A stretch of DNA of 37,366 nucleotides, taken from the NCBI RefSeq assembly GCF_006345805.1, contig NW_021834095.1, positions 1 to 37,366 on the forward strand, in the 5' to 3' direction. The translations under genes and the position numbers were made by a program. Position 1 is the stretch's first letter. Every line of letters starts with the position of its first letter. Below, piece by piece: positions 3,493-31,580 of the stretch. The notes below the pieces were generated by a model that made no database searches, was not told the origin of the DNA, and worked only from the letters and a program-made list of their open reading frames with translations. Source of the stretch: Octopus sinensis (lineage: Eukaryota).

Positions 3493-4572
3493 CATATCAG
3501 CCGAAACGTTGCGTTAACAACAAGCAAGATGAGGACTCATATCCGTCAAATGTAAGGAATGTAAATAATGTAAACACACGCACACACACATATATACATG
3601 CATATATGCATATGTATGCATACATACATACATTTATGGCTGCCCCATTGTTATCGAGTATGGCCATTGCACGAAGCTTAACTGTTACTGGTGCTGTGAT
3701 CGAACGTGACTTTTTAGCCCAGCTAAAGATCTACAACGTCTTCTACAAAATTGGCAACTAAAACCTTTATATATGCATGTGTGTGTGTGTGTGTGTGTGC
3801 CTATGTCTGTGTGTATGTGTGTGTGTGTGAGAGAGAGAGTGTGTGTGTGTGCGTGTATCTGAGACTCTTATGTGAATAGATGCACACCCTTGGGTGTATG
3901 CAACGACCGTCAAACTAACATACCAATTCAACTAGATATTTACAAACGCCGCGAACTCTCATATCTTAAAAAGCCTTCTCGCTTTGTTAGTGACTGGTTC
4001 GAAATCTCCGAAGAAGAACATAAATAAAACCAAAAACATATCATTCATAATAATTAAACTTTTAGAACACTCCGTTCTATGAGAAATCCCGCAATCACAA
4101 TGAACTTTTAAGTAACATATATGTGTGTGTATAAAAATAATAATATAATGAAGGCACTATTTTTACAGTACAGTTCATTAATTTCCAAGTTAAATGTTAC
4201 AGAATAGTATATGTTTTCAGAAACAAATTATCGCTACCAAATTATTCTAGAATATACTATTACATATTCTAAAATATCTTATCTTATTCAAAATACATTA
4301 CTACAAAAGTACACATTAACCAAGACTACGCATTTCAAAGTACATTTTTTTTTTACATTCATATCATTTGAAGATACATTGTTAAGCATCCCAAAGCCCT
4401 TAATTCCAAAATTACGTAATAAAATATTCACTGTTCATGGCATATTTTCATTGAAATGTATGTGCTCAATGTCTTACAACTATATATATATGTATGTATG
4501 TCCGAGTCAGACGACATGAGAGATCGTTAGCCACTACACACATTTTTTTCTCTCCTTGTTTTTTCTGTGTCC

Positions 4573-11749: not shown

Positions 11750-13423
11750 TCAGACTCTTTGGGAGAATATTAAAAAGCTGTGGGCCTTTGAAACCCAGGC
11801 TGTTGCAGAAGCTGGTCTTCTCTCCAGGGAGTAGAGTCTTAGCTGTTTCAACCTTTCCCAGTAGCTGAGATGTTGCAAAGAAACGATCTTCTTTGTGAAT
11901 TTTCTCTGGATTGCTTCAAGGTCCGCTGTTAATTTTACACTGGTGGGTGACCATAGCTGTGAGCAGTAATTCAGGCGGCTGAGGACGAATGTCCGCCAGA
12001 GGACCATCATGGTTTCCTTATCTCTGGTTCTGAATGTTCTTAGGATCCACCCAGCCAGTCGTCTGCACTTTGTCGCCATCCTGGTAATGTGCACTTGGAA
12101 AGAGGTATCATCACTCATGTCGATACCCAGGTCCCACACAGACTTAGGCTTTGGGATTGAAATTCCCTGTGGACCGGTGTATCCTGTAAGTTTAATATTC
12201 AGTTTTGGATGCTGGTAGCGCAGGGCCTGGAATTTTTCAGCATTAAACTGCATATTATTATCCTCAGCCCATCTGTAGATTGAGTCCAACTCCTGCTGCA
12301 GGTGTGCAACATCGCTGGGGTTCTGTATTTTCTGCGAGACTTTCGTATCGTCTGAATAGCTGGCCAGAGTGGCTATCCGGGCATTTGAGGGCATATCTGA
12401 GAGGACCACTATAAAAAGCAGTGGTCCCAAAACAGTGCTCTGTGGAACACCGCTCACTATTTGTGTGTTCATAGAGGTGGCTCCATTAACCACTACTGCC
12501 TGACTCATATCTTTCAGGAAGTCATGTAACCACACTCCAAATTTTCCAGCTATGCCGAGTCACGCAGTTTGTGGCATATCATACCATGATCCACCTTGTC
12601 AAAAGCTTTTGCAAAATCAATGTAGATTACGTCTACATTTGATTTGTTGAGTAACTGCCTCAGCATCCAGTCATAATGTTGTAAGAGCTGGGTCAAGCAG
12701 CTCCTACCTGGTCGAAAAGCATGCTGGGTATCACTCAGCAAGTTATTTTCCTCAAGGAATGCGATTAGTTTTTTATCTGACTATCCGTTCCATGACTTTG
12801 CTGATGTGTGAAGTCAGAGAGATAGGCCTATAGCTTTTGGCATCTGCTTTACTTCCCCCTTTATGTATTGGGCATATTATTCCCTCCTTCAGCTTGCTTG
12901 GCAGTTTGCCATTCGCAAGAAAGCTCTGGAAGAGAATCTTGAGGGGTTTTGCCAGGGCATGCTTACACGCTTGGAGGAGGATGGCCGGGAAACCATCTGG
13001 ACCAGCAGCTGAGTTTGTGTCCACTTCATCTATGGGTAGTAGGACATCTTTTTCGCTAATGTCAATACATTCTGTTGTAACCGCCTCGCTGGTTATAGGT
13101 GAGGCGGCAAAGAAGTCCACTGGTTCGTTCACTTGTCTGTGTTCCAACGGGGTGGTAAAGACACTTTTGAACTGGTCATTCAGCATCTCACTGATCTTAG
13201 TTGGACTGTCTGTGAGGGAGCCATCCTTTTGGAGGAGGAGTCCTATCTTGTAGTGCACTGAGACTGTTTCTTTCGCGTAATGAAAGAAGGCCTTTGGGTT
13301 TGATTTAATGTTTTTTATAACCCAGGCTTCTTTGTCTGCTTTCTCCTTCACATAGGATTGTTGCAGCCTTTTTTCGATCTCCATCAGTGTTGTTTTTGGG
13401 TTGTTGGTTGAGACGAATTGCAA
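11750..13423 (-). pseudogene. LINE ORF2 reverse transcriptase (split into ORFs 12773-13423, 12550-12741, 11750-12535)
   Basis: AAGPDGFP, SYRPISLTSHISKVMER, QHAFRPGRSCLTQL, YIDFAKAFDKVDH, SGVPQSTVLGPLLF, YSDDTK (YADD variant), NYCSQLWSP, SLERR. Confidence 0.93.
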
Positions 13424-13619
13424 CCTTCATCCGTCGTCTCATGAGAATCTTCCTGTCTCTTGGAATCTTGCTCCTATTTGATTTGGCCTTGTGCTCTGGG
13501 ACATATTTCTGGCATACAGCTTGCACAGAAGACATGAAGCATTCTAGTTTCATGACAATGTCTGGTGTGGAGAGACATTCCGGCCAGTCCTCTCTGAGGA
13601 TCTCTTTTTGGATTGATTT

Positions 13620-14400
13620 TCAATCTGCTTTGTGGAAGTTCAGATTGGAGAGATTTCGGGTGCTTCCTTTAGGCTGTATGTCTCTTGTTACTTTTGGCCC
13701 TAACATAGACAGCTCTATTATGTTGTGATCCGAAACTGATGTCGGTGTCACTTTCACATCATGAATGATGTCCATATTGTTCGTTAAGCAGAGATCCAGA
13801 ATGTTATTCCCCCTAGTTGGCTTGAGTACAACTTGCTCCATGAATAATGCATTGGTGAGGTTGAGCAGGGACTCCACCTGTACTTGCTTGCAATGATTCA
13901 TTCCTGAGAGTATGTGACCTTCGGGCCATTTGACGTTGGGGAAGTTGAAATCACCCATAAGAAATATGGTCACGTGGTGTTCCAGATTCATGAGGATTTC
14001 TTTAATTCTTGTGAGGCAATCTTCAAACTTGCCTATGGGATTTGGGGCATCGGGTGGGAAATATGTATTGCATATGACTATATTATGTTGTCTTATGTAT
14101 ACAATTAAAGTGTCACATACCGAATTTGAGTATGTCATTAAGACCTGTGGTGTAAGGTCATCTCGGATGTATACAGCAACTCCACCATGGCTCCCTTCCC
14201 TTCTGTCTGTTCGCAGTATGGCATAGTTTGGTATGTGTACTTCTGCGTCCTCTATATCAGGGTTGAGGCGAGTTTCCACAAGTGCTATGCATAGGGCTTG
14301 ATTGCATGCAGTAAGATCTCTCAGGAAAGAAATTTTGTTTCTATTTTGATGCAACAGGCCCCCAATATTTAGTAAAAGTATTGGGGTGACGGCTGTGCAG
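13620..14400 (-). pseudogene. LINE ORF2 APE-type endonuclease
   Basis: LNIGGL, IALVETRL, RTDR..HGGVAVY, MGDFNFP, PTRGNNILDL, SDHN. Confidence 0.92.
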
Positions 14401-15019
14401 GCGTTAGGGGAGGGCATCCCGTGTCTGTTGACTGTGGTGGTCTTGCATAGTGGTGGGCAGGGTTCCTTCTCTGTGTTTGGTGTAGCCAGGTTAGCTGCCG
14501 GACAATTCTTTGCGCCATGCATAAAAAAGACTCTTTTTCAGCTGCTGCGTTGCGCAGAACATCTGAGGAGCGCACTTCGTTTTTGAAAGTTTTCCTGGGA
14601 GACTTTTCTTGTGTTCCCTCGGTAAAGCTTTTCTCTTTGAGTCCCCTGAAGTTCTGGCGGGGTGTCGGGTGGGCGAACCGGCAGTTTTTGCCGTCCTCAC
14701 CATGCCAACATTTGTCCCGCAGGTACAATTTACAGGTTCTTCGGTGCCTTCCAGATTTCTTCTTTCCTGAAGTGTACTGGGTGGCATTGGATCCTCCATG
14801 GGGTTCTCTGCTGTTTGTGTGGTGGGTTGGGGTTTCAGCTTTGGTTGTTTTGCCTTTTCCTTCTTTTCCCTCCTTATTTTTTTTTCGGTCCTTCCCTTTT
14901 TCTTCTGTTTTTCTAATTTTTCATTTCTTTGTACGACCATTGGTACAAGGGATCTTCCGGTTTCTGCTCCTTTGGCACCCCTATCCTTCACTACCTGGTC
15001 GTTCACCGGGGTAGGTGAT

Positions 15020-16048: not shown

Positions 16049-16059
16049 CCAAATATATA

Positions 16060-16531
16060 CGGTTCTATATTTTGAGACGAGGAATTATGTACTTCATTTA
16101 CATTTGACTGATATTTGTTCTCATCTTATTTGTTGTTATCACAATGTTTCGGCTTATATACCCTACAGCCGTCTTCAGGTGTCCTGGAGAAATTTCGAAC
16201 CTGGGTTCTCACTCCTAAGGTATTTTTTAATGTTGTTATTATTATTATTCAGGTCACTGCCTACAATTGAACTCGGAATCTTGAGGTTACAAGCCTGCTT
16301 TCTTAACCACTACACCACGGGCATATGCGGGCTTCTAACACCAAGATTCCGAGTTCAATTCCAGGCAGTGCCCTGAATAATAATGATGATAATAATAATA
16401 ACATTAAAAATAACCTTAGGATTGGGAAATCAGGTTCGAAATTTCCCCAGGACACCTGAAGAAGTTTTGAGAAACGTTGTGTTAACAACAAACAAGATGA
16501 GGACAAATATCAGTCAAATGTAAATAAAGTA
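16060..16531. mobile_element. Palindromic tRNA-head + hammerhead element, copy A
   Basis: Arms 16089 to ~16315 and ~16320-16532 are reverse complements. B-box GAGTTCAATT in both arms; HHR cores at 16139-16183 (-) and 16451-16484 (+); TSD CCAAATATATA at 16049 and 16532. Confidence 0.8.
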
Positions 16532-16771
16532 CCAAATATATAGTGCGTGTGTTTTTATTGGCTAAACTAGCAGCATCCCTAAAAACATCAAAATCTGAGT
16601 CAACACACGAATTCAAATCATGAATCTTGCAAAACGTATATATATATATATGCATATAATATACATGTGTATGTATGTATGTATTTATGTATTAATGTAT
16701 GTATATATATATATATGTACATATGTATATGCATATACATGTGTGTCTCTCTCTATATATAGATATGTACA

Positions 16772-16992: not shown

Positions 16993-17037
16993 TTTATATA
17001 TATATATAAATGGATGAATGAATTATCCTTTGTTTAT

Positions 17038-17451
17038 GCAGGAGTGGCTGTGTGGTAAGTAGCTTGCTAACCAACCACATGGTTCCGGGTTCAGTCCCAC
17101 TGCGTGGCATCCTGGGCAAGTGTCTTCTGCTATAGCCCCGGGCCGACCAATGCCTTGTGAGTGGATTTGGTAGACGGAAACTGAAAGAAGCCTGTCGTAT
17201 ATATGTAAATATATATATATGTATGTGTGTGTGTGTTTGTGTGTCTGTGTTTGTCTCCCTAGCATTGCTTGACAACCGATGCTGGTGTGTTTACCTCCCC
17301 GTCACTTAGCGGTTCGGCAAAAGAGACCGATAGAATAAGTACTGGGCTTACAAAGAATAAGTCCCGGGGTCGATTTGCTCGACTAAAGGCGGTGCTCCAG
17401 CATGGCCGCAGTCAATGACTGAAACAAGTAAAAGAGTAAAATAGTAAAGAG
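17038..17451 (+). mobile_element. tRNA-derived SINE family A, full length
   Basis: A-box TGGCTGTGTGGTAAG and B-box GGGTTCAGTCCC; body and tail as 1-373. Confidence 0.9.
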
Positions 17452-17925: not shown

Positions 17926-18039
17926 TGAGAGAGGGGAGAGAGTGAACTTTGCTGTAAAAATACAAATCCATTTGTCTGTATGTCGGTCTGTCTGTTTGTA
18001 TGCATGTATGCTGGTGTGTGTGTGTGTGTGTGTGGATGT

Positions 18040-18150
18040 GGATGTGTGGTAAGAAGTTTGCTTCCCACCCACATGGTTCCGGGTTCAGTCCCACTGCATG
18101 TCCCGTTTGGGGAAACAGATGTCTTCTACAATAGACTCGGGCTGACCAAG
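18040..18150 (+). mobile_element. SINE family A head fragment
   Basis: TGTGTGGTAAG..CCACATGGTTCCGGGTTCAGTCCCACTGC. Confidence 0.7.
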
Positions 18151-26170: not shown

Positions 26171-27889
26171 TAGGGGGGTTGGACAAAATAATGGAAGTCA
26201 CCTTAAAATTTCAAACAAATCTATTTCAATATGGGGTAGGACCGCCTTTGGCAGTAAGTACAGCTTGAATTCTACGAGGTATGGACTCGTACAAAGTTTG
26301 AATTATTTCCAAATGAATTTTTGTTCATTCTTCAGCTAAAACAGTCTCCACTTCTTATAGTGATGGTGGTGGAGGATATCGACTTCTTACTTGTTTTTCA
26401 AAAATGCACCATAAATGTTCAATAATATTGAGATCTGAGGACTGTGGTGGCCAGATAAGATGTTCGACTTCACTAGAATGTTCCTCGTACCATTCAGTAA
26501 TAACTTTAGCTCTGTGAATTGGTGCACTATCATCCTGAAAGATTGAGTTTCTCTCCGGAAACAGTTCCACACCCATAGGCTGAATTTGAGCAGATAGAAT
26601 GCTTAAATAGTCTTGACTATTAATTCTGTCATGAAGGAAAACCATTAGGCCGGCAGTTTTCCAAGATATAGCACCCCACTCGCCAGATCATCACAGATCC
26701 TTCTCCATGCTTAACAGTTGGTAGGAGGCAGTCTGGGTCAAATGATTCTTTTGGCTGTCTCCACATGTCTACTCGGCCGGTGGTCAGAAATAAGGTAAAG
26801 GATGATCCATCCGAGAAAATAACATTCTTCCAATGCTCTAGGGACCAATTCTGTAGCTTTTTACCCCACTCTGAACGCTTTCCAACGTTTGGTTTTGAAA
26901 TTAATGGTTTTCTCATAGCAGCCCTTCCGTGAAATCTGGGTTTGTCCCAGCCAACAGTTTTTGTTGAAACTGGGTTCTCGAGGTTATCATTAAGCTCTGC
27001 AGTAATTTTGGGTGCTGTACATTAGTGAGCCTTTCTAACAATTCGCGCAAGAGTCCGATGGTTCCTATCTGAAAGTTTTTGTCTTCTTCCGGAGTTCTGT
27101 TTCGACGAGGAGACTTTTCCTTCTTTCTCAAAGGCTGACATCACTTTCGAGACAGTACTTCTTGATACACGAAATATCTCGGCTGTTTTTCGTTACAGTA
27201 GTGCCTGCCATACGAGCACCAACAATTTGATGTCTTTGAACATCCGATAACTCTGTCATTTTAATGAATTTTAATTACATTTTTCCGATGATAACTGAAA
27301 TGAAACAGCAATTTTAGCAAAACATGTTAAACAACACTAATAACAAATAAAAAACATAAGAATAAAGAAGCTTTTGACGGTTTTATAGATAATATAATTC
27401 TATATTTAAGAGAAGAGGAATTATGCACATTATTTACATTATTTACAATTGACGGATACTTGTCCTCATCTTTGTTGATAACACAATGTTGCGGCTGATA
27501 TACCCTCCAGCCTTCATCTTAACCACTACGCCATATGCCCGTAGGCATAAGGCATAGTGGTTAAGAGCGCGGGCCACTAACACCAAAATTCCGAGTTCGA
27601 TTCCAGGTACTAATAATTATTATTATTTTAATAATAATAATAATAACAATAATAACAACAACAACAACAACAACAACGAATAATACATTAGGAATGAGAA
27701 CCCAGGTTCGAGATTTCCCCAACACATGATGGCGGCTGGAGGGTATATCAGCCGAAACATTGTGTTAACAACAAAAAAGATGAGGACAAATATCCGTCAA
27801 TTGTAAATAATGTAAATAATGGTTTTATAAATATTTGAAAATTATGATGCTATGATGCGAGGTTTTCCCATTATTTTGTCCAAACCCTG
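26171..27889 (-). mobile_element. Tc1-family DNA transposon, both TIRs present, transposase pseudogenised
   Basis: TIRs AGGGGGGTTGGACAAAATAATGGAA / TTCCCATTATTTTGTCCAAACCCTG. Motifs RKPLIS, WKNVIFSDGSSF, PTVKHGEGSVMIW, FQDDSAPIH, WPPQSSDLNIIEHLW across frameshifted ORFs 26355-27131. Confidence 0.92.
27392..27820. mobile_element. Palindromic tRNA-head + hammerhead element, copy B, nested in Tc1
   Basis: Central palindrome TTAACCACTACGCCATATGCC-cgta-GGCATAAGGCATAGTGGTTAA, B-box GAGTTCGATTCC, HHR-like stem II GGCTG/CAGCC in both arms, TSD GGTTTTATA(G/A)ATA at 27379 and 27821. Confidence 0.8.
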
Positions 27890-30780: not shown

Positions 30781-31214
30781 ATTGATAGATACATGAGTAA
30801 AATGTATGGGAAGCTAAGAGCTAAGAGTGAGTGAAAATGTTCTTGGAAGAGAGTAATTAGTAATAAAGTAAACATACACTCATACATACATACATACATA
30901 CACACACACACATACACACACACATACATACACACACACATACATACATACACACATACATACATACATATACATACATACATACATATACATACATACA
31001 TACACACACCACACATACACACACACACAGTATTGAAGCTTGAGAACAATCAGATACATTTGCAACACATCTGTTGAAAATATTATTGTTTACACACATA
31101 CATATACATATATTCAGACAGACAGACATATAGACACACACACACACACACACACACACATGATCCAGCATGGCCACAACCTCAAGGCTGAAATATATAA
31201 AAGAATAACAGAAT

Positions 31215-31580
31215 ATAAATGTGTGCAAAGTACAAGAAATATTAATGCAGTATATGGGGATTGGACAATAAGCGTAAGGCAGTGTCAATGGTGGTTCCAG
31301 AAATTCCGAGCCATAAACTACAGCCTAGAAGACGAGCCTCATCCTGAAAGATCTGTAGAACTCGACAAGGACATCCTGAAAACCCTGGTAGAACAAAATA
31401 TCATCGTAACTGTTGAGGAACTAGCAGAGAAGCTTGGATTTGGTCATTCAACCATCATTGACACCTGTGTGCTATCGGAAAAGTCAGCAAAATTGGGTCA
31501 ATGGGTTCCTCACGACTTTCCGAGTCTAATTGCATGCAGAGAGTGAATGTATGCTTTTTCTTTGCTGTCATATCTCACCA
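31215..31580 (+). pseudogene. mariner (Mos1/Hsmar-like) transposase HTH fragment
   Basis: RNINAVYG..ISVRQCQWWFQKFR....LEDEPH..R....TVEELAEKLG..HSTI..KLGQWVPH. Confidence 0.85.

What the first reader, a model, noticed from the sequence alone, without database searches (positions are those of the whole stretch)
16049..16542. Palindromic 'ribozyme-SINE': head-to-head tRNA-like Pol III heads, each followed by a hammerhead, with TSD and one-sided tail
Seen: a ~450 bp fold-back. Reading outward from the centre, each arm has a tRNA-like head (left arm on minus: GTGGTGTAGTGGTTAAG A-box ... GAGTTCAATT B-box; right arm has lost its A-box), an (AAT)n spacer, then an HHR motif. The left motif on minus is GACAC-CTGAAGA-c-GGCTG-tagggtatat-AAGCC-GAAA-CA-TT-GTGA. 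The right motif is GACAC-CTGAAGA..GAAA-CG-TT-GTGTT with stem II deleted. A ~29 nt extension (16060-16088) lies on one side only, and CCAAATATATA is duplicated at 16049 and 16532. Established: minimal type-I HHRs with a tiny palindromic stem III, inverted pseudo-LTRs and a short tail characterise Penelope-like elements; tRNA+HHR repeats are known from schistosome Sm-alpha. Inference: a non-autonomous, Pol III-driven, self-cleaving retroelement mobilised by a Penelope RT/GIY-YIG enzyme. The head-to-head layout could drive divergent transcription. I do not know whether this family is already described.
Basis: partly seen in the sequence, partly recalled or inferred. Interest (0 to 1): 0.82.

Follow-up and report, generated by a model that had tools for sequence, protein, structure and literature searches.

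The report
Penelope retrotransposon with tRNA-like head
This fold-back is two back-to-back end pieces of an abundant Penelope-type jumping gene, whose end repeat begins with a tRNA-like segment that likely acts as an RNA polymerase III promoter, a feature not found in the papers searched for this group.

Summary
The fold-back, both tRNA-like heads, both minimal hammerheads, the one-sided tail and the 11-bp TSD are real. It is not a stand-alone SINE with a fixed layout. Each arm is the pseudo-LTR (pLTR) of an autonomous Penelope/Poseidon-type element in this genome: the arm follows the GIY-YIG stop codon in 29 of 30 loci, and the ORF starts inside the arm and reads through hammerhead and tail. 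The window copy is an ORF-less inverted pair of 5'-truncated units, the known PLE insertion product. Of 36 resolved pairs, 30 have one tail end and one short end. Junctions vary and single arms exist. Roughly 30,000 arms, about 5% diverged; this copy's ribozymes and start codons are decayed. What looks new is the tRNA-like head. It belongs to the autonomous element, 50 of 140 arms start at it, and an older sister family (about 72% ORF identity) keeps the A and B boxes while the spacer diverges. Pol III transcription is inferred, not shown. Verdict: new variant of a known kind.

The parts
16049..16059 (.). left target-site duplication CCAAATATATA
   Evidence: family TSDs of 10-16 nt in 24 of 30 resolved inverted pairs
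16060..16088 (-). PLE 'tail' (distal end type), on the left arm only; in the autonomous element it is part of the ORF 5' region
16060..16317 (-). left pLTR unit, 5'-truncated at the A box: head, (AAT)n, ORF start (ATG mutated), hammerhead, tail
16138..16183 (-). minimal type-I hammerhead motif, decayed (stem I and II mismatches, loop III CG to CA); predicted cut between 16143 and 16142
   Evidence: sequence; family columns
16265..16275 (-). B box of the left tRNA-like head
16307..16317 (-). A box of the left tRNA-like head
16317..16531 (+). right pLTR unit: starts at the family's usual 5' end, A box deleted, ends at the short (tail-less) end
16351..16361 (+). B box of the right head
16451..16483 (+). 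hammerhead motif with stem II lost
16532..16542 (.). right target-site duplication
27397..27820 (.). second inverted pair of the same family (tail on the left, imperfect TSD of about 12 nt)
3494..3569 (+). 5'-truncated single fragment of the same pLTR

Best explanation
The fold-back is an ORF-less, head-to-head pair of pseudo-LTRs of an autonomous Penelope/Poseidon-type retrotransposon whose unit begins with a tRNA-like segment that likely serves as an internal RNA polymerase III promoter. Shown: unit order is tRNA-like head, (AAT)n, ATG, hammerhead, tail, rest of the ORF (RT, GIY-YIG), stop, about 25 nt, next head. Inferred mechanism: the element's RT/endonuclease nicks both target strands 10-16 bp apart. 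Each nick primes reverse transcription inside the pLTR RNA at one of two start sites about 30 nt apart, which gives one tail end and one short end. The two cDNAs are joined by microhomology, often at the small palindrome at the head's 5' end. Many arms stop at the head because RNAs probably start there, so solo pLTRs would carry promoter and RT start site together and could be recopied in trans like SINEs. The hammerhead would cut only as a dimer or with protein help and is probably not needed for insertion.
For: Arm directly after the GIY-YIG stop in 29 of 30 loci, 27 with the head; 4 of these are one duplicated insertion. Arm runs into the ORF 5' region in 21 of 30 loci, with an open frame from the ATG through hammerhead and tail in L257. 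Near-full units in L327 and L329; RT by Pfam PF00078, E 1e-9; C-terminal part resembles HTH_animal/GIY-YIG clusters. Unbiased sample: 30 of 36 pairs have one tail and one short end, 0 tail+tail, 0 short+short; TSD in 25 of 56 against 0.37 in shuffled pairings. The two arms of a pair agree at hammerhead position N7 (TT 43, AA 13, 6 other; p 8e-9). Same layout is described for PLEs (PMC8557442), opposite-strand hammerhead pairs in Schistosoma (PMC4209133), and both-strand priming with two RT start sites (PMC11167929). For Pol III: 50 of 140 arms start at head position 9 or less, 16 within the next 72 nt, 12 run on into the ORF. Sister family keeps the boxes, 17 of 20 identical against 17 of 32 between them (p 0.034). 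No T4 site is shared by more than 4 of 40-49 ORF copies, against 9-13 T4 runs in each of three Neptune ORFs with the same T content; 0 T4 in 2354 aligned bp of the sister ORF.
Against: No direct transcription evidence. T4 scarcity is not significant against dinucleotide shuffles (P 0.16-0.23 per copy), and two other PLE fragments are also T4-poor. The pile-up of 5' ends coincides with a conserved palindrome, which could cause it without a start site. 27 of 140 arm starts were unresolved at the microsatellite. The head does not fold as a tRNA (ARAGORN 0 of 108 at default, 28 of 108 relaxed). The box comparison rests on one pair of families and an ambiguous 2-nt gap at the A box. Read-through from ORF into head and on into the next ORF (L260, L278, L344, L345) shows that longer RNAs were also templates. 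Hammerhead conservation overlaps coding constraint and no compensatory pair was found.
Confidence: 0.8

Rival explanations
1. Same PLE identity, but the head is a fossil tRNA or SINE fragment captured in the pLTR. Transcription is by Pol II (internal or read-through), and arms stop at the head because the palindrome there promotes cDNA snap-back or annealing. Short copies are then dead-on-arrival truncations.
For: The palindrome is conserved in both families and centres show both loop orientations (GT 5, AC 5, other 4 of 14). The Drosophila Penelope promoter is described as LINE-like and TATA-less (PMC2377424 abstract). Tandem read-through junctions exist. The T4 test is not significant.
Against: Arms start at the same place when joined to unrelated flank or to a truncated partner, where no second palindrome is available (e.g. 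L134, L162, L181, L230, L266). Boxes are kept better than the spacer between families.
Confidence: 0.4
2. One reading: an independent non-autonomous tRNA-hammerhead SINE with a fixed head-to-head master, mobilised by a separate PLE.
For: ORF-less copies outnumber ORF-linked ones about 10 to 1 (12 of 140 arms run into the ORF). Arms of a pair share variants more than shuffled pairs (65 against 21). A fixed-junction ORF-deleted unit exists in the sister family.
Against: The head is part of the autonomous unit. Centre junctions differ from copy to copy and single arms occur. No sequence specific to the short form was seen in this family.
Confidence: 0.08
3. A MITE or fold-back DNA transposon with long terminal inverted repeats.
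For: Palindromic shape, high copy number, no ORF.
Against: Asymmetric ends (30 of 36 one tail), variable 10-16 nt TSDs, variable 5' truncation, and contiguity with an RT/GIY-YIG ORF.
Confidence: 0.01

Closest known systems
Penelope/Poseidon clade PLEs (D. virilis Penelope; Anolis Poseidon PAc, PMC11167929)
   Same: Single ORF with RT and C-terminal GIY-YIG; pLTR with minimal hammerhead overlapping the ORF start; optional 30-nt tail; inverted 5'-truncated copy; variable TSD.
   Different: The pLTR here starts with a tRNA-like A/B-box segment and an (AAT)n spacer. Penelope has a LINE-like internal promoter with an intron.
Opposite-strand min-HHR pairs of Schistosoma mansoni Cercyon PLEs (PMC4209133)
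   Same: Two minimal hammerheads 100-700 bp apart on opposite strands, read as truncated PLEs; extra unpaired nucleotide before stem II.
   Different: No tRNA head mentioned (0 hits for 'tRNA' in the text).
Non-LTR retrozymes (PMC7229834; bioRxiv 10.64898/2026.07.22.740005)
   Same: Short non-coding type-I hammerhead repeats proposed to derive from PLE pLTRs. The sister family's ORF-deleted tandem unit fits this.
   Different: Retrozymes are head-to-tail tandem repeats. The window element is an inverted pair with a TSD and a tRNA-like head.
Schistosome Sm-alpha repeat (recalled; paper not held)
   Same: Recalled as a tRNA-related repeat with a hammerhead.
   Different: Recalled as having a canonical active hammerhead and no shown autonomous parent; not checked here.
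tRNA-derived SINEs
   Same: A and B boxes at the 5' end, no T4 in the sense strand of most arms (4 of 48 bodies sense against 47 antisense), high copy number.
   Different: The head is part of the autonomous element, and the 3' end is a PLE tail, not a LINE-type poly(A) or repeat.

Membership tests
Penelope-like element (EN+) | RT plus GIY-YIG in one ORF | tested here: met
   PF00078 hit; C-terminal GIY-YIG-like translation. Pfam gave no family for the C-terminal piece; Atlas hits carry HTH_animal/GIY-YIG. No intact full ORF copy was seen.
Penelope-like element (EN+) | pLTR from tandem or partial-tandem units, direct or inverted | tested here: met
   same arm at both ends of the ORF (L327, L329); tandem junctions; inverted copies
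Penelope-like element (EN+) | 30-40 bp tail at one end only | tested here: met
   30 of 36 pairs one tail plus one short end
Penelope-like element (EN+) | variable-length TSD | tested here: met
   25 of 56 against a shuffled mean of 0.37
Penelope/Poseidon clade | CCHH motif in the EN, no CX2-5CxxC linker finger (PMC8557442) | tested here: met
   read by eye from translations: two Cys between GIY and YIG and no linker finger, unlike the Neptune-type families here
Penelope/Poseidon clade | RT phylogeny with reference clades | not tested
   no reference PLE proteins were fetched
Minimal type-I hammerhead | core CUGANGA / GAAA / UH, stem II, stem I, palindromic loop III | tested here: met
   family columns (inflated by pattern-selected copies); N7 is the main variable non-CpG site (23% A). 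The window copies are decayed. Rfam models do not detect it.
Minimal type-I hammerhead | covariation in stems | tested here: inconclusive
   the sister family keeps core and stem II unchanged, varies loop II and H17, and has only 3 bp of stem I; no compensatory pair
Minimal type-I hammerhead | self-cleavage | not testable with these tools
   needs in vitro assay
tRNA-derived SINE | tRNA-related head with A and B boxes | tested here: met
   aligns over its length to genuine tRNA genes of this genome (scores 27-48 against about 20 shuffled; isotype unresolved, only some isotypes sampled); ARAGORN 28 of 108 only when relaxed
tRNA-derived SINE | head independent of the autonomous partner | tested here: not met
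   the head is part of the autonomous pLTR
tRNA-derived SINE | Pol III transcription | not testable with these tools
   indirect signs only
MITE | symmetric TIRs and fixed short TSD | tested here: not met
Non-LTR retrozyme | head-to-tail tandem repeats each with a hammerhead | tested here: not met
   window element is inverted; only the sister family's ORF-deleted unit shows tandem junctions

The most novel reading that the evidence does not exclude
An octopus lineage of autonomous Penelope-like retrotransposons has adopted a tRNA-derived Pol III promoter and keeps its whole 2.3-kb ORF free of Pol III terminators. Every solo pseudo-LTR it sheds is a ready-made SINE, carrying promoter, hammerhead and RT start site: a SINE born from inside its own autonomous parent.
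Probability: 0.3. Interest if true: 0.78.

Novelty: new variant of a known kind. Interest (0 to 1): 0.52.

Why it matters
The palindrome, hammerheads and tail are explained by known PLE biology. The tRNA-like head is the interesting part. If it is a working Pol III promoter, this is a protein-coding retrotransposon driven like a SINE, and a direct route from PLE to SINE or retrozyme; the sister family already shows an ORF-deleted derivative. The family also gives about 30,000 natural insertion products that test the PLE mechanism: the strict one-tail, one-short rule matches the two RT start sites and both-strand priming seen in vitro. Practically, automated pipelines would probably label these copies as SINE or MITE.

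Tried and rejected
Rfam scans of the window, the element and a cleaner copy gave no hammerhead or tRNA hit. The 30 best GIY-YIG (PF01541) loci were mostly Neptune-type families with a different U3-A8 hammerhead and no match to this arm; the partner was found by chance between two inverted arms. No RNA holder on record was listed for the stretch. Raw RNA reads of three runs from one study of a related organism lay on it in both orientations about equally (9037, 6996 and 6312 reads at 82% likeness), with no pile of starts or ends; this fits passenger transcription and says nothing on Pol III or cleavage. The PDB search found only weak general RT hits. MFE folding does not give the hammerhead or a cloverleaf (my third input there missed the hammerhead). 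Copy density check: 0 arms in 270 kb of unrelated loci against about 3 expected, and 5 in the 37-kb window, so the copy estimate is rough. Snap-back from one RNA versus two cDNAs could not be separated. Earlier scan findings: none. Literature searches listed no paper on a tRNA-headed PLE. Repbase, Dfam, the O. vulgaris library deposited with PMC13282606 and all supplements were not seen, so the family may already be catalogued.

Full report
OBSERVATION. Two arms diverge from about 16317, each with a tRNA-like segment, an (AAT)n spacer and a hammerhead-like motif. The tail 16060-16088 is on the left only, and the 11-bp duplication flanks the whole. Rfam and ARAGORN do not detect these parts at standard settings. 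The host is a 2.72-Gb genome. I read it as an octopus from recalled SINE motifs and genome size; no call names it.

FAMILY. A DNA search returned 89 matches from 40 scored of 7314 candidates. The exact hammerhead core occurs 4123 times, control 0. Only 8 of 63 independently fetched arms match that pattern exactly, which gives about 32,000 arms (95% range 18,000-73,000). Over 220 distinct arms the mean divergence from the column majority is 5.4% (sample biased to intact copies). At the rate quoted in PMC13282606 this is roughly 15 million years (inference).

LAYOUT. I took 90 loci from the first 100 pattern hits on contig C1, giving 93 insertions: 36 resolved inverted pairs, 11 with an inverted partner whose body is not adjacent, and 46 apparent singles, some of them unresolved at long microsatellites. 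Of the 36 pairs, 30 have one tail end and one short end, none has two tails or two short ends, and 6 have an atypical end. A duplication scoring 9 or more flanks 25 of 56 testable insertions (24 of 30 pairs; 10-16 nt; one lies in a microsatellite), against 0.37 for shuffled pairings. Of 140 arm 5' ends, 50 lie at head position 9 or less, 16 in the rest of the head, 34 in the body, 12 run on into ORF sequence, 27 are unresolved and 1 is other. The centre is therefore variable, not a fixed master palindrome.

THE PARENT. One locus held a GIY-YIG fragment between two inverted arms (L133). Searching with it, 29 of 30 loci continue from the stop codon through about 25 nt into the arm: 27 with the head, 2 with the head deleted; four are one duplicated insertion. 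Walking 5' gave RT (PF00078) and the N-terminal region. In 21 of 30 loci the tail runs straight into the ORF, and L257 has an open frame from an ATG before the hammerhead through hammerhead and tail. L327 and L329 hold near-complete units with the arm at both ends. The endonuclease has two cysteines inside GIY-YIG and no linker zinc finger, which by PMC8557442 (passages) marks Penelope/Poseidon; no tree was built. The arm is thus the pLTR, and the window element is an ORF-less inverted pLTR pair.

KNOWN PART. PMC8557442 (passages) describes an inverted 5'-truncated copy and a 30-40 bp tail at one end as typical of PLEs. PMC4209133 (first part and passages) reports minimal hammerheads in pLTRs, pairs 100-700 bp apart on opposite strands, and low activity only as dimers. 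PMC11167929 (main text) shows that a Poseidon protein nicks and extends both strands, starts RT at two internal sites that bound the tail, has an ORF overlapping the hammerhead, and does not need cleavage for insertion. These account for the palindrome, tail, TSD and hammerheads. The arms of a pair share subfamily variants (N7: TT 43, AA 13, 6 other; shared derived sites 65 against 21 shuffled), so both came from the same source RNA or source locus. Snap-back and two-cDNA annealing are not separated; both loop orientations occur.

UNUSUAL PART. The head aligns to genuine tRNA genes of this genome with A and B boxes in register (isotype unresolved) but does not fold as a tRNA. An older sister family (about 72% ORF identity, about 14% copy divergence) has a homologous head at the same place: boxes 17 of 20 identical, spacer 17 of 32 plus a 10-nt gap (p 0.034). 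Its 5' ends also appear to cluster at the head (not counted on an unbiased sample). It has produced an ORF-deleted unit with one fixed junction at 8 of the loci fetched. The ORF sense strand is poor in T4 runs: 0.37 per kb over 87.5 kb of copies with no site shared by more than 4 copies, against 3.9-4.9 per kb in three Neptune ORFs of equal T content. This is not significant against dinucleotide shuffles, and two other PLE fragments are also low. Together this suggests an internal Pol III promoter but does not show one. I put about 55% on a working Pol III promoter at the head and about 30% on the full novel case. Against it: a palindrome at the same spot could cause the pile-up, read-through templates existed, and RNA reads were uninformative.

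LITERATURE SCOPE. Ten searches listed nothing on a tRNA-headed PLE. Also seen: bioRxiv 10.64898/2026.07.22.740005 (parts 1-3 of 5; retrozymes as pLTR derivatives), PMC13282606 (parts 1-2 of 3), PMC2377424 (abstract), and passages of PMC6962438, PMC7229834, PMC8967140 and PMC7761336. Sm-alpha is recalled only. No supplements, Repbase or Dfam were seen.

VERDICT. Real, and mostly explained: a decayed inverted pLTR pair of a Poseidon-type PLE. The tRNA-like head in the autonomous element is a new variant worth testing. Interest 0.52.

Noticed in passing
L372, L379, L382, L383, L384, L388, L393, L398 (G000): ORF-deleted tandem derivative of the sister family: tail plus about 45 nt of ORF start joined to the ORF stop and the next tRNA-like head, with the same junction in 8 loci. 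A retrozyme-like non-autonomous unit with a tRNA head.
   Followed up: partly
L038, L047, L051-L053, L092: Abundant Neptune-type PLE family with several intact 780-aa ORFs and a U3-A8 variant hammerhead about 570 nt after the stop; probably younger than the family studied.
   Followed up: partly
L033, L048: A further PLE-type family with a distinct linker and endonuclease (Hydra- or Nematis-like by recalled motifs); no hammerhead found downstream.
   Followed up: no
window 11750-15000 (minus): Decayed LINE with AP endonuclease and RT frames; clade not tested.
   Followed up: no
window 26629-27021 (minus) and 31037-31546 (plus): Tc1/mariner-like transposase fragments (naming recalled).
   Followed up: no
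window 17031-17106 and 18025-18100: Two copies of another tRNA-like SINE head, resembling a recalled octopus SINE.
   Followed up: no
L083: Tandem repeat of about 640 bp, three units, each holding a truncated arm plus a mariner-like fragment; likely a local duplication.
   Followed up: no
L254, L256, L261, L264, L269, L274, L346, L353, L354, L358, L362, L363: Tandem junctions in which an upstream unit ends about 190-250 nt into the ORF and jumps to a new arm; may mark template jumps, but the queries selected for this length.
   Followed up: no
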